Below, in pieces: positions 8,978 to 41,067 of a stretch of 47,738 bases of DNA (positions within the stretch are counted from its first letter, which is position 1; every line of letters starts with the position of its first letter). Both the position numbers and the translations under genes were made by a program. Below the pieces are notes generated by a model. That model made no database searches, had not been told where the DNA came from, and saw nothing but the letters and a program-made list of their open reading frames with translations. The DNA lies in assembly GCA_964422845.1 (NCBI GenBank), contig CAYRCT010000001.1, positions 1-47,738 of the forward strand. The letters are read 5' to 3'. The stretch comes from an uncultured Candidatus Saccharibacteria bacterium. Its GTDB lineage: Bacteria; Patescibacteriota; Minisyncoccia; Minisyncoccales; PEYH01.

Positions 8978-9481
8978 TCATATCAAGGTAACCACCTCCA
9001 TTTTTTCTTCTTCAGCAACGACAACATAGCCAAGTTCATTCTTAGAAATTGTTACCTTGCGAAAACCATCAAGCCGAAACTGCTTGGCGATAGCTTTAAT
9101 GATATCTTCTCTGTCGTCAATGAAGAGCGTGCATCCAATCGTGGATATCACTCTAGCCTTAAAAAGTGGCTGGGAAACGCGCGGATCCTTTCGTAGATAA
9201 ATACCATCAAAAGGAATCTTCCATAATTTAAACCAGCACCGAACAAGCCATCCAATGATGCCATATATCCCCGAAACAACGAAAACCTTATTGCCTGCTT
9301 CTCTCTGCTCTCTGATCCACTCTACCGCTTTAGATTTCGGATGCCTGAAAATATAACATGGGGTAGCAAGAAGCACCCTGACAACTCTATTTCGGATTGG
9401 TTTTCCAGAAAAGGGCCAATACCATATCTTCCAAGGGTTTTCGGCTATCACGCCATCAACATCTATTCCAACAATAGCCAT
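8978..9481 (-). CDS. HAD-superfamily hydrolase-like protein
   Basis: HAD motif I is DVDGVI, motif II-like is VVSG, and motif IV-like is FIDDRED. I moved the start to the ATG at 9481 because AAGGAGG lies 8 nt upstream; the GTG at 9490 in the track lies inside that SD. Confidence 0.6.
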   Translation of the reverse strand: MAIVGIDVDGVIAENPWKIWYWPFSGKPIRNRVVRVLLATPCYIFRHPKSKAVEWIREQREAGNKVFVVSGIYGIIGWLVRCWFKLWKIPFDGIYLRKDPRVSQPLFKARVISTIGCTLFIDDREDIIKAIAKQFRLDGFRKVTISKNELGYVVVAEEEKMEVVTLI

Positions 9482-22843: not shown

Positions 22844-23161
22844 TTGCGGGGCCTGGAATTGCACCAGGGCCTGGGGCTTCTTTGACACTTTTTGTTTCCA
22901 AAAAGAATGGACTATACCATATGCCTAAACTAGGCATTTCCCATTATAGTCTCTGAACCTTCCCAATAAATATTAGGCTTGGCTGCTGATTACCAAATCT
23001 TCTCTTTTTTTGAACAATCGCGCTTATCCTTTTGGATTACGCTGTTGTAAGAAAAGCTCTAACGGCTTTCCAGCAATTTAGAGAATTTTTCCACAAGACA
23101 TTACTGTCTTGGGTCACGCTTCGAACATGAGACCCCCGAGATACTACTTCTCTACCCCGCT
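22844..23161 (-). tRNA. tRNA(CAU), probably the initiator, interrupted by a group I intron
   Basis: The 5' exon (23161-23127) reads AGCGGGG/TA/GAGA-AGTAGTA-TCTC/G/GGGGT/CTCAT. The 3' exon (22879-22844) reads AA/GCCCC/AGGC/CCTGG-TGCAATT-CCAGG/CCCCGCA/A. It has a 1:72 A-A mismatch and an A11:U24 pair. Confidence 0.8.
22880..23126 (-). ncRNA. Group I intron (247 nt, no ORF) in the anticodon loop of tRNA(CAU)
   Basis: It follows an exon U and ends in G. Core motifs present are AAATTGCTGGAAAG, CAGCAGCCAAGCCTAA and GTTCAGAGACTATAATGGG...GGTATAGTCC. GNRA-capped hairpins are CAAGACA-GTAA-TGTCTTG and CTTTTTG-GAAA-CAAAAAG. A candidate P8 hairpin is ATGCCTA-GTT-TAGGCAT. Confidence 0.85.
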
Positions 23162-23166
23162 ATACT

Positions 23167-23189
23167 AAAAAACGCTTCTTTATAGAAGC
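23167..23189 (-). terminator. Rho-independent terminator after the gatCA operon
   Basis: The minus strand reads GCTTC-TATAAA-GAAGC followed by GTTTTTT, immediately before tRNA position 1. Confidence 0.55.
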
Positions 23190-29728: not shown

Positions 29729-30778
29729 TTATTTTAAAATATAAGCAGTCGCGGGACCTTTACCTTTTTGTTCAATAATTTTTAATTTTTTAAGCTTCTG
29801 CAATTCCAATTGAGCAGTTCTCTTTGAACAATCTAAAATATCAACCGCATCTTTTATTATAATCTTGCCACTTATATTAATAAAATCAAGAATTTGGACT
29901 TGCCGAAGGCTTAAATAAATTTGCTCTCCTGATGTCTTGTTATTTTTAAGGGCTGCAAGTGAAAATATTTTTGTTCTTACGGTCTCAATTTCAAATTTAA
30001 ATCCTTCGATAAAATATTCTAACCATTTTGTGAAATCTTTTTGATGGTAAATCGGCCCTATGCTAATTGCCTGATAATATTTTTGTCTATCTTTATTGTA
30101 ATAATCTTCTAGGGCAAAAAGTTTACGAAAATTATAATCTCTTTGATACAAAATCAAGGTAGATAAGGCCCGGGCCACCCTTCCATTCCCATCAACAAAT
30201 GGATGAATAGAAGCAAACTGACGATGAGCCGTTCCTGCAACTAAAATTGGATGAATATCTTGTTGTTTGCTGTTCTGGATCCAATCAATTAGATCCTTTA
30301 TTAACTCAGAAACTTTCAAGGCATCAGGTGCTGTATAAATAACTTTATCGGGCGCGCCTAGTGCTCTTTTAACAACATAGACCTTTTGAGTTCGATACTT
30401 GCCACACTTTTCTTTTGGTAATGTTTTATCTGTAACTAGATGGTGAATTTTCAAAATAATTGACTCTGTGATTACTTTCTTTTCCTCAACTATTTTTTCA
30501 ATGTACTTAATTGTTTTTAAATAATTCTTTGCTTCATAAATATATCTTGCTGGCGCATCAATTTTTTGCCCCTTGAATAATGCCTCAACTTGTTCAAGAT
30601 TCAAAATGTTTCCTTCTATCGCGATAGAGCTTTGAGTCATTCTAATTAATGCTTGCCTGCGCAATCTAAGTTCTTGAGTAGGCAAAATCTTTGCTTTTTC
30701 AATAATAACTTTAGCTTCAGCTATAGAGGTTAAATCAGATAATATCTTATTGGTCAGCTTGTAAGATGGATTAAACAT
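29729..30778 (-). CDS. Fic-domain protein with a C-terminal wHTH-like region
   Basis: The Fic motif HPFVDGNGRVAR is intact. An N-terminal inhibitory-helix-like motif SIAIEG is present. The start was moved to M27 (MFNPSYKL) of the track ORF, which is the more typical family N-terminus. Confidence 0.8.
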   Translation of the reverse strand: MFNPSYKLTNKILSDLTSIAEAKVIIEKAKILPTQELRLRRQALIRMTQSSIAIEGNILNLEQVEALFKGQKIDAPARYIYEAKNYLKTIKYIEKIVEEKKVITESIILKIHHLVTDKTLPKEKCGKYRTQKVYVVKRALGAPDKVIYTAPDALKVSELIKDLIDWIQNSKQQDIHPILVAGTAHRQFASIHPFVDGNGRVARALSTLILYQRDYNFRKLFALEDYYNKDRQKYYQAISIGPIYHQKDFTKWLEYFIEGFKFEIETVRTKIFSLAALKNNKTSGEQIYLSLRQVQILDFINISGKIIIKDAVDILDCSKRTAQLELQKLKKLKIIEQKGKGPATAYILK

Positions 30779-30891
30779 AGTTTTGATACTATCCCTTTCT
30801 ATGCATTTTAACACTAAATTTAGAATCGCGCAATAATCACGCAATAAATCGTGCAAAAAACAGATTATTTATCTAAGTTTTAAGTCTTAGA

Positions 30892-32829: not shown

Positions 32830-34110
32830 CTAATTCTTTATTCTTTTAATTTTAGCTCCGATTTTTTCCAACCGCTCTTCTATCCTCTCGTATCCCCTGT
32901 CAATCTGATAAATATTATTAATAGTCGTTTGCCCTTTAGCAATCAATGCTCCGACTATCAACGAGGCTCCTCCCCTTAAATCGGGAGAATTCACAACTAC
33001 TCCCCTCAACTCTGTCGGGCCATTAACAATTGCCCTGTGAGGGTCAGCAAAAATAATCTGCGCTCCCATTTTATTTAATTCGTCTAGATAACGCAATCTG
33101 CCTTCGTATAATGGATCGTGTAAAAGAGTTGTTCCTTCTGTTTGTGTTGCCAAAACACCAAACAAGGGCAAAAGATCCGTGGGAATTCCAGGAAATGGCA
33201 ACGCCTGAACTTTTTCCATTCTTAAAGAAACCCAAGGTTTAATTTTAACAATGCCTTGATCTTTTATCTCTAGGGGAAGACCAAAGTCCCTTAATCTCTT
33301 CAACACAAGTTCCAAAAAAGGTATTTCAACATTTTTAACAGTTAATTCGCTTCTAGTGGCGGCTGCCATTAGAATAAAAGTTCCTGCTTCAATCGGATCA
33401 TTGATTAATTTGTGTTTTGCTCCTGATAATTTCTTTTTTCCGGTTATAACGAAAATATGAGGACCTTTTGTTTCTACTTTCGCTCCCATCTTTTCCAAAA
33501 ATCTAATTAAGTCCTGAATTTCATAATCACAATCAGCTATTTTAATAACTGTTTTTTGATTAAACCTGCTCGCAAATGACAAAACATTTTCAGTAGCTGT
33601 AACGCTAAATTCGTTAAGAATAACTCTATCCTTTGGCTTTTCATTAATCTCTAGGTTAAAATATTCTCCTTTTTCTGATTCCTTTACCTTAACGTTAACC
33701 CCTAATTGAGAAAAAGCATCCAAATGAGTGGAAATCGGCCGAGCCCCAATTAAACATCCGCCTGGCTGTGGAAATTTCACCTTTCCGCATCTTGCCAAAA
33801 GAGGTCCAAAAAGTAAAACAGAACCTCTAAATTTTGTTACCAAGTCCTCTCTGATTTTATCGGGCTCAGGAGCTGTTTTTTCTTTAATTTTGATAGCTCT
33901 CTTGCCAATCCAAGAAATTTCCTTTCCTAAACTTTCTAAAATCTCCAACAAAAGAAAAACATCCTCAATCAAAGGGATATTTTCTATTAAACACTCCTCA
34001 TCTGTAAGTAATGTGGCAGCTAAAATCGGAAAACAAGCATTTTTAGCGCCCCTTGCTTCTATCGTGCCCCTTAACCGTTTGCCTCCATTAATGATGAATT
34101 GCTCTGCCAT
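32830..34110 (-). CDS. murA: UDP-N-acetylglucosamine 1-carboxyvinyltransferase
   Basis: It has the N-terminal INGGKRLRGTIEARGAKNA motif and the active-site motif PGGCLIGARPI with the cysteine retained. Confidence 0.95.
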   Translation of the reverse strand: MAEQFIINGGKRLRGTIEARGAKNACFPILAATLLTDEECLIENIPLIEDVFLLLEILESLGKEISWIGKRAIKIKEKTAPEPDKIREDLVTKFRGSVLLFGPLLARCGKVKFPQPGGCLIGARPISTHLDAFSQLGVNVKVKESEKGEYFNLEINEKPKDRVILNEFSVTATENVLSFASRFNQKTVIKIADCDYEIQDLIRFLEKMGAKVETKGPHIFVITGKKKLSGAKHKLINDPIEAGTFILMAAATRSELTVKNVEIPFLELVLKRLRDFGLPLEIKDQGIVKIKPWVSLRMEKVQALPFPGIPTDLLPLFGVLATQTEGTTLLHDPLYEGRLRYLDELNKMGAQIIFADPHRAIVNGPTELRGVVVNSPDLRGGASLIVGALIAKGQTTINNIYQIDRGYERIEERLEKIGAKIKRIKN

Positions 34111-34264
34111 GATGCTTTTATGCTACCTTGAAATAAAAAAAATGGCAAATTATGCCTTTTAATGTTTCTTGGGAAAGTCCACAAGTTATGGACTTTCCCA
34201 AGCAGAGTGTGAGTCTTTACGACTCGCTTAATTCGTCCCTTGGAGACGGTCTTTCCTTCGTCCT

Positions 34265-34300
34265 CTAGGTGACAAAAACTCCGAAATGTACTTTGCGCAT
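34265..34300 (-). CDS. Candidate mini-ORF 2 (MRKVHFGVFVT) inside the structured RNA
   Basis: GGGAGG lies 10 nt upstream of the ATG. The ATG itself sits in the GCGCAT/ATGCGC stem (34295-34300 paired with 34319-34324). Confidence 0.25.
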   Translation of the reverse strand: MRKVHFGVFVT

Positions 34301-34433
34301 GATGATCAATCCTCCCTTATGCGCCGGGTTTCTGTACGACCTTGTTCTGATAGCAAATTGCTGTTCAGAGCGCCTTTTCCGATTGGAGTGCGAACCTTTC
34401 GGTTCACCGAATTCGTCTCTTTCAGCCGTACGC

Positions 34434-34478
34434 CTACTTAATGACGAAACCTCCAATAGATACAAGTGCTTTTTTCAT
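34434..34478 (-). CDS. Candidate mini-ORF 1 (MKKALVSIGGFVIK) inside the structured RNA
   Basis: GGAGG lies 10 nt upstream of the ATG. Confidence 0.25.
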   Translation of the reverse strand: MKKALVSIGGFVIK

Positions 34479-34581
34479 CGCCGATCGACCTCCATGTCGA
34501 TGTCCACGAGTTCTCTATGTTTCGAGGCAATCACCTTGAAACGCCTTTTCGAGAGAGTCCTAAACTCCCTGTGCTAATTTT

Positions 34582-34610
34582 ATAATACAAAATATTTTTA
34601 CTTTTTGCAA
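34582..34610 (-). promoter_or_regulatory. Candidate promoter for the structured RNA/murA leader
   Basis: The minus strand has TTGCAA (34610-34605), a 17-nt spacer, then TATTAT (34587-34582). Confidence 0.4.
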
Positions 34611-34629: not shown

Positions 34630-34657
34630 TTGAAAATAAGGAATAAATGTCTATAAT
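34630..34657 (+). promoter_or_regulatory. Candidate promoter for the plus-strand 492-aa gene
   Basis: TTGAAA, a 16-nt spacer, then TATAAT. Confidence 0.45.
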
Positions 34658-34740
34658 TAAATTACCTTAAAGAATTTATATATAATCAATTTAATTTCAA
34701 GGTTCTGTGAGCGAAGCAAGCAGACTCTTCTAATAAGAAA

Positions 34741-36219
34741 ATGACAAAAAGATTTAAAAAAATATTATTCTTCGGACTCTGTCTGCTCTTCCTTATATCA
34801 GCACCATCTGTAATTTTCTATTCTTTAGGATATCGTTTTGATTTTGAGAATATAAAAATCGTCCAAACAGGAGGCCTCTTTTTAAAAATTTCGCCTCCGG
34901 GAGTAATAGTTGATATTGATCAAGAATTACACAAAAAAACTAATTTCTTTTTTGATTCCGCCTTTATCAACGGATTAATACCGAAAGATTATCAAGTAAC
35001 TATTCAAAAGACTGATTATCATCCGTGGAGCAAGGTTTTAAAAATAGAAGAGAAACAAGTTACTGAAGCGAAAAACATTGTCCTATTTCCCAAAAATCCA
35101 GAATTTAACCTTGTAAACAAGGATATAAATGATTTTTTCCCTGCCCCTGATGGTAAAAAAATAATCTTTAAACTTACAGGAGAAATGGGATGGACCCTCA
35201 ATTCTTTTAATATTGAAACCAAAGAACAAAAAAAACTTGCGAGCGAACAAGAGCTTAAGCTATTGCAAGAGGATAAAAAAATCAATGAGATTACATTTCT
35301 TAATCTTGTCTGGTCTGACGATTCTCAAAGAATTCTTATTGAAATTAGCATAAAGGGTCAAAAACGATATCTTGTCCTTACAACAGAGCCAGAAACAAAT
35401 CTTTTTATTCTTGACTCTGAAACCAGTATAAAAAAGATTAGTTTTAGCCCAAGTAAATCTGAAGAATTATTCTTTATTGCGCTTGAACCCAAACAAAAAT
35501 TAACAGAAGAAGACAAAAAATCCAAAATTAGAAAAGAAGTTATTTTTCGTTTAAAGAGTGATGGCCAGCAAGTAATGTTAAAAAATTCTTCTCCTTCTTT
35601 TGAGCAAAATATTGTAAGCTATTTGGTTATAAAAGATAATATTGTCTGGCTCACTGATTCTGGATTTCTTTATCTCGGCCGATTAATAAATTCTGATAGA
35701 ATAGAATTGATTAAAATTCTAAACCTCAAACCAATAAATATTTATGAAGAAACAAATTATCAAATTATTGCTAAAGATTTTTCTAAAATCTTTCTCAAGC
35801 GAGACGAAACTCTTTATTATCTAAATCCTGAAACCCATTTATTGGAACAAATCTTTAATTCGATAAAGACAGTAAAATTTTCTCAAGATATGAAAAAGAT
35901 TATTGTTTCTACTGGTAATCAAATCTGGCTTTTTTATCTAGAAGAAGAGTACGAACAACCTAAAAGAAAAATTGGAGAAAAAATTCTTTTAGCCGGATTT
36001 CCAAACGAAATCAACAATCTTTTCTGGTTAAATAATTTCTATATAATTTTCCAAACCAACGAGTCAATAAAAATTGCAGAGATTGATAATCGCTCTAGGG
36101 TTAATTTAATTGAACTTACAACATTCCCCTGTTCTTCAATCTCTTGGTCTCAAGAACAAAAAACTCTTCTCGTCTCGAGTGAGAATAATCTCTTTTCTTG
36201 CAACGATATTATAAAATAG
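34741..36219 (+). CDS. Hypothetical membrane-anchored protein with a PEGA-like domain and beta-propeller-like repeats
   Basis: It has an N-terminal TM helix and a PEGA-like segment (YQVTIQKTDYHPWSKVL). TolB/WD40-like strands recur (DGKKIIF, SQRILIE, MKKIIVS). Confidence 0.55.
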   Translation: MTKRFKKILFFGLCLLFLISAPSVIFYSLGYRFDFENIKIVQTGGLFLKISPPGVIVDIDQELHKKTNFFFDSAFINGLIPKDYQVTIQKTDYHPWSKVLKIEEKQVTEAKNIVLFPKNPEFNLVNKDINDFFPAPDGKKIIFKLTGEMGWTLNSFNIETKEQKKLASEQELKLLQEDKKINEITFLNLVWSDDSQRILIEISIKGQKRYLVLTTEPETNLFILDSETSIKKISFSPSKSEELFFIALEPKQKLTEEDKKSKIRKEVIFRLKSDGQQVMLKNSSPSFEQNIVSYLVIKDNIVWLTDSGFLYLGRLINSDRIELIKILNLKPINIYEETNYQIIAKDFSKIFLKRDETLYYLNPETHLLEQIFNSIKTVKFSQDMKKIIVSTGNQIWLFYLEEEYEQPKRKIGEKILLAGFPNEINNLFWLNNFYIIFQTNESIKIAEIDNRSRVNLIELTTFPCSSISWSQEQKTLLVSSENNLFSCNDIIK

Positions 36220-39290: not shown

Positions 39291-39932
39291 TTATCTTGAA
39301 TAAAATTCAAAAATAGATGAAATCTCTGCTGGTGGACTTGCCTCTTCTAGTGTTGGCAAACCGATTACTTCTCCATCAACTTTCTTTTTGTCTAATTTAA
39401 GCCAAACAGGCGCTTCATATTTTTTTAAAGAAACATCTAATCTTTTAAATATTTCCTTATCCTGAAATTTTGGACAAAAACTTATTTTATCTCCTTTTTT
39501 AGCTGTAAAACTAGGAATATCAACTTTCTTGTCATTAACCAAGAACTGACCATGAGAAACCATCTGGCGAGCTTGAGTGCGATTAATAGCAAAGCCCAAT
39601 CTAAAAATAATATTATCTAAGCGGGTCTCTAATTTTTGAATTAAAAGCTCCGCAGGATTCTCCCCTGTAGAAGAAGCCCGACGAGTTCTCTCAAGAACAT
39701 CTTTAGCATACTTACTAAATTGTCTCTCTCTTAATCCATACCAATTTCTTAACTTTTGCTTTTCTCTTAACTCCTTACCATATTCTGATAAAGGTCGTCC
39801 TCTTTTTTTCTTTACTAACCCAGGAGGATATGCCTTTTTAATCATTGGACATTTAGCAGAAAAACACTTTTCTCCTTTTAAGAATAGTTTCCTTCCTGCT
39901 CTTCGACAAATTTTACATTTTGCGTCTTTCAT
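39291..39932 (-). CDS. rpsD: Ribosomal protein uS4
   Basis: It has an N-terminal zinc-ribbon-like CKICRRAGRKLFLKGEKC and an S4 RNA-binding domain (RLDNIIFRLGFA). Confidence 0.93.
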   Translation of the reverse strand: MKDAKCKICRRAGRKLFLKGEKCFSAKCPMIKKAYPPGLVKKKRGRPLSEYGKELREKQKLRNWYGLRERQFSKYAKDVLERTRRASSTGENPAELLIQKLETRLDNIIFRLGFAINRTQARQMVSHGQFLVNDKKVDIPSFTAKKGDKISFCPKFQDKEIFKRLDVSLKKYEAPVWLKLDKKKVDGEVIGLPTLEEASPPAEISSIFEFYSR

Positions 39933-39992
39933 TTGACTTAAATCCTCCCGCTCCCGTCCTCCCTACTAGAAAGGCGAGGGCGTAGTGGGATT

Positions 39993-40623: not shown

Positions 40624-40677
40624 AGGTTCTTATATATTTATTTCTTAGCGAATCAAGGTTCTGCCGTAGGCAGGTTC

Positions 40678-41067
40678 TTACTTCGGCGCAGGAGCGCCTT
40701 TACGTCCCGAACCAACTGTTTTTCTTAAATTACCTCTTACTGTTCTTGAATTTACTCTAGTGGTCTGTCCTCTCACTGGAAGCCCTTTCTTATGACGCAG
40801 TCCTCTCCAAGAGCCAATATCTTTTAATCTTTTTATAGACATCATGCGAATTTTACGAATCTCTCCCTCAACTTTATATTTTGAAGTAATAATCTCTTGA
40901 ATTTTATGTGCTTCATCATTCTTCAAACTATCCACTTTTCTATCGGCCTCAATACCTGCTTCCATTAAAATTTTTTTACTCGAAGTACGTCCTATTCCGA
41001 GAACATAGGTTAATCCAATCTCTATTTGTTTATTAGGAGGCAAATTAACGCCTGATATTCTTACCAT
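40678..41067 (-). CDS. rpsM: Ribosomal protein uS13
   Basis: It starts MVRISGVNLP and has a basic C-terminal tail. Confidence 0.93.
   Translation of the reverse strand: MVRISGVNLPPNKQIEIGLTYVLGIGRTSSKKILMEAGIEADRKVDSLKNDEAHKIQEIITSKYKVEGEIRKIRMMSIKRLKDIGSWRGLRHKKGLPVRGQTTRVNSRTVRGNLRKTVGSGRKGAPAPK

What the first reader, a model, noticed from the sequence alone, without database searches (positions are those of the whole stretch)
34133..34610. About 440 nt of GC-rich, highly structured RNA of unknown class abutting murA
The 630-nt divergent spacer between murA and the 492-aa gene contains a block with about 50% GC (hand count 30/60 at 34381-34440) in a roughly 30% GC genome. Both strands have only short, SD-less, poorly supported ORFs. 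On the minus strand it has a TTGCAA-17-TATTAT promoter. It forms a three-way junction: ATTGGAG/CTCCAAT encloses a GNRA hairpin GTGAACC-GAAA-GGTTCGC and a TTCGTC/GACGAA stem. A potential pseudoknot pairs GTACGGC with GTCGTAC. Further hairpins are ATCGAC-ATGGAG-GTCGAT and GAGTC-GTAAA-GACTC. There is also a perfect 14-bp hairpin, then a weak GGCA/TGCC-T8 terminator that ends only 23 nt before the murA ATG. That leaves no room for a separate murA promoter. The murA-mreB-holB operon may therefore be read through from this element, which would make it a very long regulatory leader. Otherwise it is an independent ncRNA. I could not match it to RNase P, tmRNA, SRP, 6S, T-box, cobalamin or glmS consensus sequences.
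Basis: partly seen in the sequence, partly recalled or inferred. Interest (0 to 1): 0.7.

Follow-up and report, generated by a model that had tools for sequence, protein, structure and literature searches.

The report
Clade-specific structured RNA with mini-ORFs
The GC-rich block upstream of murA is a real, conserved, separately transcribed structured RNA found so far only in one small group of Patescibacteria; it carries one or two tiny ribosome-binding-site-led ORFs, matches no Rfam family, and is not needed to explain murA transcription.

Summary
Window 34135-34610 (minus strand) has its own promoter, about 441 nt of 47% GC RNA in a 34% GC window, a perfect 14-bp hairpin and a weak terminator.

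Rfam (4227 families) and ARAGORN give no match, for the window or three orthologues. Homologues lie at the same place in five other species that form one clade in MurA trees. Sister lineages lack it, and one nested member (L183) has deleted it.

Four species have a roughly 275-290 nt version. The window and its closest relative L182 carry a tandem duplication of the core unit.

Helices are supported by compensatory changes: 11 of 52 pairs against 5.0 expected. G-U pairs far outnumber A-C mismatches, which fixes the murA-sense strand.

Each unit holds an invariant GGAGG-9/10 nt-AUG and an 11-18 codon ORF. Substitutions in the first-unit ORFs (six orthologues) are about half synonymous in that frame only. 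GGAGG sits in a hairpin loop, and the AUG is predicted paired in six of eight copies.

murA keeps its own promoter, including in relatives without the RNA, so the "no room for a promoter" argument fails. Function is unknown. My best reading is a translation-gated micropeptide mRNA or dual-function small RNA.

The parts
34582..34610 (-). Promoter of the RNA: -35 TTGCAA (34610-34605), 17-nt spacer, -10 TATTAT (34587-34582). The predicted start is near A34575, inside the conserved AAAATTAGCA (34581-34572).
   Evidence: Promoter scan. The same TTGYWA-17-TAWTAT-AAAAT(T)AGCA arrangement is seen in L011, L084, L086, L088 and L182. No transcript data are available.
34552..34570 (-). H1, the 5' hairpin AGGGAGTT-TAG-GACTCTCT.
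   Evidence: It appears in the MFE of every orthologue with a different sequence. The register between species is uncertain, so its covariation count is not used.
34383..34550 (-). Unit 1. Its parts are the GAAAAGGCG motif (34550-34542), H2 (34542-34519), H3 (34502-34476), mini-ORF 1 (34478-34434) and the GNRA-capped three-way junction (34457-34382). H3 carries GGAGG in its loop, and CAU is available to pair with the AUG. Mini-ORF 1 encodes MKKALVSIGGFVIK*.
   Evidence: nhmmer unit match, coordinates, helix covariation, coding-frame test and SD/AUG pairing probabilities.
34203..34380 (-). Unit 2, a diverged tandem copy of unit 1. Its parts are the GAAAAGGCG motif (34379-34371), H2' (34370-34344), H3' GCGCAT[..GGGAGG..]ATGCGC (34324-34295), mini-ORF 2 (34300-34265) and three-way junction 2 with a GTAAA loop (34283-34203). 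Mini-ORF 2 encodes MRKVHFGVFVT*.
   Evidence: nhmmer E = 1.5e-25 to the unit profile. The block is absent from the four one-unit species. A second unit is present in L182, with mini-ORF MRTVLTGGFVD*.
34168..34202 (-). Hterm, the perfect 14-bp hairpin CTTGGGAAAGTCCA-TAACTTG-TGGACTTTCCCAAG. It is REP-like.
   Evidence: Hairpin scan. Compensatory changes occur at 3 of 13 counted pairs and 100% of cells are paired. In the orthologues its arms share the GGGAAGTC..GGACTTCCC core with REP hairpins that flank a Y1 (RAYT-like) transposase gene. L183 has a chimeric REP/Hterm hairpin exactly where the RNA is missing.
34135..34156 (-). Weak terminator-like hairpin GGCA-TAATT-TGCC followed by T8. It overlaps the -35 region of the murA promoter.
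   Evidence: Read from the sequence. It is invariant in all RNA-bearing species, so covariation says nothing about it. It was too weak for the terminator scan.
34110..34148 (-). murA's own promoter: -35 TTGCCA (34148-34143), -10 TAGCAT (34125-34120), then 9 nt to the murA ATG (34110). This would give a leaderless or nearly leaderless mRNA. It is not part of the RNA element but abuts it.
   Evidence: Promoter scans of the window and four orthologues. The same or a closely similar motif is seen in relatives that lack the RNA.

Best explanation
This is an independently transcribed, lineage-restricted structured small RNA gene, not a housekeeping RNA and not an obligatory murA leader.

**Architecture.** A sigma-70-like promoter drives a transcript of about 275-290 nt in four sister species. 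In the window and in L182 it is about 441 and 455 nt, because the core unit is tandemly duplicated. The transcript folds into:
- a 5' hairpin (H1);
- one or two units;
- a REP-derived 14-bp hairpin;
- a weak terminator that overlaps the -35 of murA's own promoter.

Each unit runs GAAAAGGCG motif, hairpin H2, hairpin H3, mini-ORF, then a three-way junction capped by a GNRA loop.

**The mini-ORF.** H3 displays an invariant GGAGG in its loop. The AUG 9-10 nt downstream can pair with an upstream CAU in the stem. The AUG opens an ORF of 11-18 codons with a conserved start, MK[KR]AL[VA]L[SC]. The 3' half of the ORF forms the 5' strands of the junction.

**Proposed mechanism.** The RNA is a structurally gated micropeptide mRNA, possibly a dual-function small RNA. 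The 30S subunit can dock on the exposed GGAGG. Initiation needs H3 to open, and a translating ribosome must unzip junction helices P1 and P2.

**Shown:** conservation, covariation, strand, a coding-type substitution pattern, and duplication and loss.

**Inferred:** transcription, translation, the gating, and any effect on murA. The role of the peptide is unknown.
For: **No known family.** Rfam at gathering and at E <= 10 gives nothing for the window. Three orthologues give no consistent sub-threshold hit. ARAGORN finds no tmRNA.

**Orthologues and distribution.**
- Orthologues lie at the same murA-upstream position in L011, L084/85, L086/87, L088 and L182.
- RNA-bearing taxa are monophyletic in MurA trees.
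- Sister lineages L012, L013, L089 and L091-93 lack the element.
- L183, nested in the clade, lost it by a REP x Hterm fusion.

**Structure.**
- 52 pairs are 93.8% canonical.
- 11 pairs carry double changes, against 5.0 +/- 1.6 in shuffles (0/500).
- Slid controls pair in only 31-50% of cells.
- P2 covaries completely: UUCGUC/GACGAA, UCUCCU/AGGAGG, CAAAU/AUUUG.
- The P3 loop stays GNRA (GAAA, GUAA or GCAA) in seven of eight units and is GUAAA in window unit 2.

**Strand.** There are 30 G-U pairs against 6 A-C mismatches. That count includes H1, whose register between species is uncertain.

**Mini-ORF.**
- GGAGG-9/10 nt-ATG is invariant in 8 of 8 units.
- In the six first-unit orthologues, over codons 2-8, differing codon pairs are 38 synonymous and 34 non-synonymous in the ORF frame. 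The other two frames give 8/69 and 4/76.
- Leu-5 is encoded by CTT, TTA and CTA. Position 3 is Lys or Arg, with Arg encoded by AGA and CGT. Where position 9 is Arg, the codons are CGA and AGA.
- The only length variant upstream of the junction is in frame, -6 nt in unit 2.

**Gating.**
- The first four GGAGG bases have unpaired probability 0.97-1.0 in six of eight copies. The exceptions are L011 (fourth base 0.75) and window unit 2 (0.14-0.94).
- The AUG is paired (unpaired probability mostly <= 0.05) in six of eight copies, less so in window unit 1 and L011.
- In unit 2 the CAU:AUG pairing is rebuilt in a different helix register.

**murA promoter.** It is conserved with and without the RNA.

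**No long ORF.** No conserved long ORF exists on either strand.
Against: - There are no transcript or ribosome data.
- Only six species (eight units) are available, all closely related, so covariation statistics are modest and not independent of phylogeny.
- ORF length (11-18 codons) is no longer than chance allows in AT-rich DNA, and the C-termini and stop positions vary.
- The two unit-2 ORFs differ at 5 of 11 residues, with only 2 synonymous changes.
- This genome hardly uses SD sequences. Few of 44 genes have even a 4-base SD-like motif within 30 nt of the start, and only two have a full GGAGG 5-12 nt before a start codon. The GGAGG loop might therefore serve another purpose.
- Junction helix P1 is weak in L084 and in L182 unit 1.
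- The element is dispensable, since L183 deleted it.
Confidence: 0.5

Rival explanations
1. It is a purely non-coding structured RNA. On this view the invariant GGAGG in the H3 loop and the CUCC-type strands are functional RNA motifs, and the mini-ORF is incidental. Such motifs could bind the 3' end of 16S rRNA, bind a protein that recognises GGA loops, or pair with another RNA.
For: - Covarying helices and a GNRA loop point to RNA-level selection.
- The genome is SD-poor, so a displayed GGAGG is unusual.
- ORF lengths and C-termini vary, and the unit-2 peptides are poorly conserved.
- The GAAAAGGCG motif is conserved, with minor substitutions, in all eight units and has no coding role.
Against: - Over the linker codons 2-8, synonymous changes are enriched in the ORF frame only (38/72 against 8/77 and 4/80). 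RNAalifold pairs part of that linker with the 3' arm of H1, so RNA-level constraint there cannot be ruled out.
- The AUG is invariant in 8 of 8 units, and its pairing is rebuilt in a new register in unit 2.
- The only indel is in frame.
Confidence: 0.25
2. It is a long regulatory leader or attenuator of the murA-mreB-holB operon. Translation of the leader peptide would remodel the junction and Hterm, and so set read-through of the weak terminator into murA or occlusion of the murA promoter.
For: - It has the same strand as murA and lies directly upstream in all six species.
- The terminator is only a 4-bp stem plus U8 and overlaps the murA -35.
- The short ORF runs into alternative-pairing strands. 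RNAalifold also pairs the 3' arm of H1 with the ORF's GGAGG region.
- Genes here start without SD, so murA could be translated from a read-through transcript.
Against: - murA has its own conserved promoter, which must suffice in relatives that lack the element and in L183 after deletion.
- The ORF has no run of regulatory codons.
- Hterm is not followed by a U-tract.
- No conserved antiterminator/terminator alternative was found.
- Sister lineages and L183 do without the RNA.
Confidence: 0.12
3. It is a type I toxin-antitoxin-like locus. The mini-ORF would encode a small toxic peptide, with its structured mRNA holding translation off.
For: - The mRNA is structured and its start codon is sequestered.
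- The peptide has a cationic N-terminus followed by hydrophobic residues.
- The locus has undergone tandem duplication and deletion within one clade.
- It sits next to mobile REP/RAYT DNA.
Against: - The peptides are 11-18 aa with 9 or fewer hydrophobic residues, too short for the transmembrane helix of known type I toxins.
- No antisense promoter appears at a conserved position in the window or four orthologues.
- Only a single locus per genome fragment was seen. The element stays at one chromosomal site instead of being scattered.
Confidence: 0.08
4. It is decaying debris of a REP/RAYT (IS200/IS605-like) insertion or a gene remnant with no function of its own.
For: - The spacer is a REP insertion hotspot. 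L086 has a RAYT-like gene with REPs, L084 a solo REP plus tandem repeats, and L088 and L014 other palindromes.
- Hterm shares the REP core, and the RNA was excised between a REP and Hterm in L183.
Against: - Compensatory changes keep six helices across species that have diverged to about 70% identity in this region.
- The promoter, GGAGG and AUG are invariant.
- Both duplicated units keep every feature.
- Other RAYT loci carry no such RNA.
- No parent gene with this N-terminus was found in the sequence held.
Confidence: 0.05

Closest known systems
Dual-function small RNAs and small structured mRNAs with tiny ORFs (for example SgrS/SgrT, RNAIII/hld, SR1/SR1P, Spot 42/SpfP with a 15-aa product). 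From my own knowledge.
   Same: It has its own promoter and terminator, is a few hundred nt long, has several conserved hairpins, encodes a very short ORF inside the structured RNA, and is restricted to one lineage.
   Different: There is no sequence or Rfam relationship. No base-pairing target is known. The ORF is shorter than most (11-18 codons) and its C-terminus is not conserved. The unit is duplicated in tandem within one transcript.
Type I toxin mRNAs (hok, tisB, ibs, zorO, aapA1). From my own knowledge.
   Same: The mRNA is highly structured, the translation start is hidden in a helix, the copies are tandem, and the locus shows gain and loss.
   Different: No antisense partner was found. 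The peptide is too short and too weakly hydrophobic. The element is fixed at one syntenic site.
Leader-peptide attenuators (trpL, ermCL type). From my own knowledge.
   Same: An ORF of 11-18 codons lies upstream of, and on the same strand as, an operon. Its 3' part forms strands of downstream helices, and a terminator sits just before the gene.
   Different: A conserved murA promoter lies between the element and the gene. There are no regulatory codon runs, and no demonstrable terminator/antiterminator pair.
REP sequences and RAYT (Y1/HUH, IS200-like) transposases.
   Same: The 14-bp terminal hairpin shares the GGGAAGTC..GGACTTCCC core with REPs that flank a PF01797 gene in L086, L180 and L181. 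A REP x Hterm fusion removed the RNA in L183.
   Different: The rest of the RNA (H1, H2, H3 and the junction) has no REP similarity and does not accompany RAYT genes elsewhere.

Membership tests
Known Rfam families (RNase P, tmRNA, SRP, 6S, riboswitches, OLE/GOLLD/HEARO/ROOL/raiA, group I/II introns and others) | A covariance-model score at or above the family's gathering threshold | tested here: not met
   The element gives no hit at gathering. At E <= 10 there are only scattered eukaryotic snoRNA/miRNA-type noise hits, and they differ in each of the four sequences tested.
tmRNA | A tRNA-like domain plus a tag-peptide reading frame, detectable by ARAGORN | tested here: not met
   ARAGORN finds only tRNA-Asp and tRNA-Met in the window.
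Housekeeping RNA of any kind | Presence across the phylum, or at least in all close relatives | tested here: not met
   It is absent from sister species with 78-87% MurA identity and was deleted in L183.
Riboswitch or cis-regulatory murA leader | It lies in the 5' UTR of the regulated gene, with no promoter in between | tested here: not met
   TTGCCA-17-TAGCAT lies between the element and murA. The same or a closely similar motif is present in relatives without the element. This rests on promoter consensus and conservation only; no transcription start site data exist.
Leader-peptide attenuator | A short ORF whose translation chooses between alternative terminator and antiterminator helices, with runs of regulatory codons | tested here: inconclusive
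   The short ORF overlaps P1/P2, and an alternative pairing of the H1 3' arm with GGAGG is predicted. No codon run and no conserved antiterminator were found.
Type I toxin-antitoxin | A hydrophobic toxin ORF of about 19-60 aa that forms a transmembrane helix | tested here: not met
   The ORFs are 11-18 aa: MKKALVSIGGFVIK, MRKVHFGVFVT and orthologues.
Type I toxin-antitoxin | An antisense or adjacent antitoxin RNA gene | tested here: inconclusive
   No promoter-like site appears on the opposite strand at a conserved position in the window or four orthologues. The consensus scan is crude.
Small protein-coding gene or dual-function small RNA | A start codon with a ribosome-binding site, and purifying selection on the encoded amino acids | tested here: met
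   GGAGG-9/10 nt-ATG is present in 8 of 8 units. Synonymous/non-synonymous counts are 38/34 in frame against 8/69 and 4/76 out of frame. The sample is small and the species are related.
Small protein-coding gene or dual-function small RNA | Evidence of translation or of the peptide | not testable with these tools
   No ribosome profiling or proteomics is available.
REP/REPIN (RAYT-mobilised palindrome) | A palindrome sharing the REP core of a cognate RAYT, and repeated in the genome | tested here: inconclusive
   Hterm shares the core, and a REP/Hterm chimera exists in L183. The window's 47.7 kb holds no other copy. Whole genomes could not be scanned.

The most novel reading that the evidence does not exclude
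The element is a ribosome-sensing device placed in front of the cell-wall and cell-shape operon. In a genome that almost never uses Shine-Dalgarno sequences, the displayed GGAGG loops capture 30S subunits. Translation of the mini-ORF, or ribosome stalling on it, unzips the junction. That sets how often RNA polymerase from the upstream promoter reads through, or occludes, the overlapping murA promoter. Translational capacity would then be coupled to murA-mreB-holB expression. A related variant is that it arose de novo at a REP insertion hotspot.
Probability: 0.1. Interest if true: 0.65.

Novelty: new member of a known kind. Interest (0 to 1): 0.38.

Why it matters
Very few non-coding RNAs or micropeptide genes have been described in the Candidate Phyla Radiation (from my own knowledge; two literature searches here found none). 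This locus gives a compact, datable case within one small clade: gained once, duplicated once and deleted once through REP recombination. Covariation supports the structure, and there is a coding-type signal in an ORF of 11-18 codons.

It also corrects the idea that murA depends on this element. It shows that murA in these organisms has a highly conserved promoter that would give a nearly leaderless mRNA. The practical value is as a seed alignment for a covariance model, and as a target for metatranscriptomic checks. It does not bear on a long-standing open question.

Tried and rejected
- **Rfam and ARAGORN:** all of Rfam at the gathering threshold and at E <= 10, on the window and three orthologues, gave nothing. 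ARAGORN found no tmRNA.
- **Motif pattern scans:** the junction pattern gave 0 hits in viral contigs. In metagenome contigs it gave 3 hits, all chance matches in high-GC DNA (55-66% GC) with no resemblance to the element. Two further patterns in viral contigs gave 86 loci. nhmmer showed only the pattern itself matching.
- **Extra copies:** nhmmer with full-length and unit profiles over 646 kb of held sequence found no copies away from the murA site.
- **RAYT passenger idea:** two other RAYT loci, L180 and L181, have REPs but no RNA.
- **Antisense antitoxin promoter:** none appears at a conserved position.
- **Longer protein gene on either strand:** frames are broken at different places in each species, and Pfam is empty for the 102-aa and 66-aa ORFs.
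- **Parent gene for the mini-ORF N-terminus:** none was found in the held loci.
it is not above shuffles and not conserved.
- **Early resemblances to RNase P:** ACAGAAACCCGG and GGAAAGUCC looked like RNase P CR-V and CR-I. They are not conserved in orthologues, and GGAAAGUCC is simply one arm of Hterm.
- **An error of mine:** one row of my manual helix table, L182 unit 2 H3, was mis-specified. One search gives the correct pairing, GCAU/AUGC plus GGUCAA/UUGAUC. The totals include that row and should be read with that in mind.
Full report
**1. What is in the window**

The spacer lies between murA and a divergent 492-aa gene. murA is at 32830-34110 on the minus strand (PF00275). The 492-aa gene is at 34741-36219 on the plus strand; its more distant homologues carry a PEGA domain.

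On the minus strand the spacer holds these features, in order:
- a TTGCAA-17-TATTAT promoter at 34610-34582;
- about 441 nt of RNA-like sequence, 47% GC over 34203-34581 against 34.4% for the window;
- a perfect 14-bp hairpin at 34202-34168, the only hairpin of that strength in 47.7 kb;
- a GGCA-N5-TGCC-T8 hairpin at 34156-34135.

Both strands fold well beyond shuffles, z = -5.3 and -5.7, so folding energy alone does not give the strand. The element is identical in nine independent contigs from several samples.

**2. It is not a known RNA**

cmscan against all 4227 Rfam families finds only a group I intron and two tRNAs elsewhere in the window. At E <= 10 the region, and three orthologues, give only unrelated noise that differs from sequence to sequence. 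ARAGORN finds no tmRNA.

**3. Relatives**

The organism is a Patescibacteria (Parcubacteria/Nealsonbacteria-like) MAG. I collected murA neighbourhoods through MurA and through the 492-aa neighbour. The collection gives this picture:
- Homologous RNA lies at the same position in L011, L084/85, L086/87, L088 and L182.
- These taxa form one clade in MurA trees.
- Sister lineages have spacers of roughly 100-280 nt that lack the element (L012, L013, L089, L091-93).
- L183 is nested next to the window and L182 but lacks the RNA. In its place is a chimeric hairpin. The 5' arm comes from a REP (TGGTGGAAGTC). The 3' arm and downstream flank come from the RNA's terminal hairpin (GGACTTCCCTAGGAAATTTTAAAAGGCA).

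The element was therefore gained once, is dispensable, and its terminal hairpin is REP-homologous. REPs with the GGAAGTC(S)GACTTCC core flank a Y1/HUH (PF01797, RAYT-like) gene. That gene is inserted just upstream of the RNA promoter in L086/87, and similar genes occur at unrelated loci. Those unrelated loci carry no such RNA, so the RNA is not a general RAYT passenger.

**4. Anatomy**

Four species have a roughly 275-290 nt version. From 5' to 3' it reads:
- conserved 5' end AAAAT(T)AGCA;
- hairpin H1;
- the single-stranded motif GAAAAGGCG;
- hairpin H2;
- hairpin H3;
- a linker;
- a three-way junction, in which P1 is GGAG/CUCC, P2 is UUCGUC/GACGAA, and P3 is capped by GNRA;
- the terminal hairpin Hterm;
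- the weak terminator.

The window's extra 179 nt are a second, diverged copy of the block from GAAAAGGCG to the junction. Unit 1 is 34550-34383 and unit 2 is 34380-34203. L182 also has two units, so the duplication predates the split between the window species and L182.

**5. Structure support and strand**

I counted pairs on a MAFFT alignment of five species with a structure I specified (H2, H3, P1, P2, P3, Hterm and the terminator). The results:
- 52 pairs are 93.8% canonical.
- 11 pairs show changes on both sides, against 5.0 +/- 1.6 in shuffles (0/500).
- Structures slid by 1-3 columns pair in only 31-50% of cells.

RNAalifold independently recovers H2, H3, P2, P3, Hterm and the terminator. 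Manual per-helix tables that include both units of the window and L182 show full covariation of P2. They also show a GNRA loop (GAAA, GUAA, GCAA) in seven of eight units, with GUAAA in window unit 2.

G-U pairs outnumber A-C mismatches 30 to 6 (this count includes H1). G-U pairs would become mismatches on the other strand, so the transcribed strand is the murA-sense one.

Caveats:
- Only six closely related species are available.
- The register of H1 between species is uncertain.
- P1 is weak in L084 and in L182 unit 1.
- One row was mis-entered and is corrected.

**6. The mini-ORFs**

Every unit has GGAGG followed 9-10 nt later by ATG. The encoded peptides are:

| Unit | Peptide |
|---|---|
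| Window unit 1 | MKKALVSIGGFVIK |
| L182 unit 1 | MKKALVLSRVFSYQPTT |
| L084 | MKRALALSRVSA |
| L086 | MKKQLVLCVGLGEQIPSV |
| L088 | MKKALVLCGGFVK |
| L011 | MKRALVLSGGFVAYRVR |
| Window unit 2 | MRKVHFGVFVT |
| L182 unit 2 | MRTVLTGGFVD |

The frame test uses codons 2-8 of the six first-unit orthologues. These codons lie in the linker, outside the helices I specified, although RNAalifold pairs part of it with the 3' arm of H1. Codon pairs that differ are 38 synonymous and 34 non-synonymous in the ORF frame. The other two frames give 8/69 and 4/76 on the same nucleotides (five-species version).

Further observations:
- Leu-5 uses CTT, TTA and CTA. Arg codons at position 3 are AGA and CGT, and at position 9 CGA and AGA.
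- The one length difference upstream of the junction is in frame (-6 nt, unit 2).
- Partition-function folding puts the first four GGAGG bases in an unpaired loop (probability 0.97-1.0) in six of eight copies.
- The AUG is paired in six of eight copies.
- In unit 2 the CAU:AUG pairing is rebuilt by a helix in a different register.

These points favour real translation under structural control. Four points weigh against it:
- The ORFs are no longer than chance allows.
- Their C-termini vary.
- The unit-2 peptides are poorly conserved.
- The genome hardly uses SD motifs. Few of 44 genes have even a 4-base SD-like motif within 30 nt of the start, and only two have GGAGG 5-12 nt upstream.

**7. 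Relation to murA**

The T8 run and TGCC belong to a TTGCCA-17-TAGCAT promoter at 34148-34120, which ends 9 nt before the murA ATG. The roughly 50 nt around it are identical in all RNA-bearing species. The same or a closely similar motif sits before murA in relatives whose short spacer contains nothing else.

murA therefore has its own promoter, which would give a nearly leaderless mRNA. The RNA's terminator is weak, so some read-through or promoter occlusion remains possible. Nothing requires it, and L183 and the sister lineages do without the RNA.

**8. Interpretation**

| Reading | Probability |
|---|---|
| Lineage-specific, independently transcribed, structurally gated micropeptide mRNA or dual-function small RNA with a REP-derived 3' hairpin | about 0.5 |
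| Purely non-coding RNA whose GGAGG loop has another role | about 0.25 |
| Leader-peptide control of murA | about 0.12 |
| Type I toxin-like locus | about 0.08 |
| Functionless REP/IS debris | about 0.05 |

No homologue was found outside the clade. The large collections could only be searched with exact patterns and the caps are spent, so a wider distribution is untested.

**9. Verdict**

The structured RNA is real and new to Rfam, so it is a new member of a known kind. It has a narrow distribution and an unknown role. The 'obligatory murA leader' reasoning is not.

Noticed in passing
window 22888-23139 (-), with exons at about 23140-23180 and 22845-22887: A group I intron (Rfam 78.3 bits) interrupts a tRNA gene next to tRNA-Met and tRNA-Asp. 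After the intron is removed in silico, ARAGORN calls a tRNA. The exact splice point, and so the anticodon (Leu, Phe or Ser depending on the junction), is ambiguous.
   Followed up: partly
window 34110-34148 (-), and the same site in L011-L016, L019, L044, L045, L084-L093, L182 and L183: The murA promoter TTGCCA/TTGCTA-N17-TAGCAT/TAGGAT-AAAA is conserved across species with MurA identity down to about 63-73%. It ends about 9-17 nt before the ATG (9-10 nt in the closest relatives), which implies a leaderless or nearly leaderless murA mRNA.
   Followed up: partly
whole window (44 ORFs of at least 100 aa): Genes almost never have a Shine-Dalgarno motif upstream. Apart from the two mini-ORFs, GGAGG 5-12 nt before a start codon of a long ORF occurs only before the S4 gene and one 167-aa ORF (start near 9478).
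   Followed up: partly
window 39933-39965 (-): The S4 gene (39291-39932) is preceded by an unusually GC-rich, GGAGG-rich leader, GGAGGACGGGAGCGGGAGGATTTAAGTCAA. It could be an autoregulatory S4 leader. Rfam gave no hit there.
   Followed up: no
window 34652-34723 (- sense) and 40653-40680; L092 60-290: A roughly 70-nt promoter-like unit, GAACCTTGAAATTAAA..ATATAT..TTTAAGGTAATTTAATTAT, lies in the 5' region of the 492-aa gene. A 28-nt piece occurs after the S13 gene. In L092 the unit is present as three tandem copies inserted between the murA promoter and the murA ATG (85-89% identity).
   Followed up: partly
L086 1655-2401 (also L087, L181): RAYT-like Y1/HUH transposase genes (YHIYNRG..., HFH motif) carry one or two REP hairpins inserted in frame inside the coding sequence, encoding ..QLVEVGLPPV... 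They are also flanked by the same REPs. More than 6800 relatives exist in the protein collection, many of them from CPR.
   Followed up: partly
L084 9470-9620; L088 95-150; L014 2915-2945: The spacer between the 492-aa gene and murA is an insertion hotspot. L084 has tandem AAACGGGGG-type repeats plus a solo REP. L088 and L014 have a different palindrome, CCGTTACYCGGTAAYGG.
   Followed up: no
L006 555-768 (window 34478-34265): A JGI gene call with a 14-residue product starts exactly at the mini-ORF 1 ATG and ends at the mini-ORF 2 stop. Its length is not a multiple of three. It may be an annotation oddity, but it shows that one pipeline picked the same start codon.
   Followed up: no
window 29729-30856 (-): A 375-aa Fic-domain gene sits between holB and the ribosome-recycling-factor gene in the window species. 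It is absent from that position in L084/L085.
   Followed up: no
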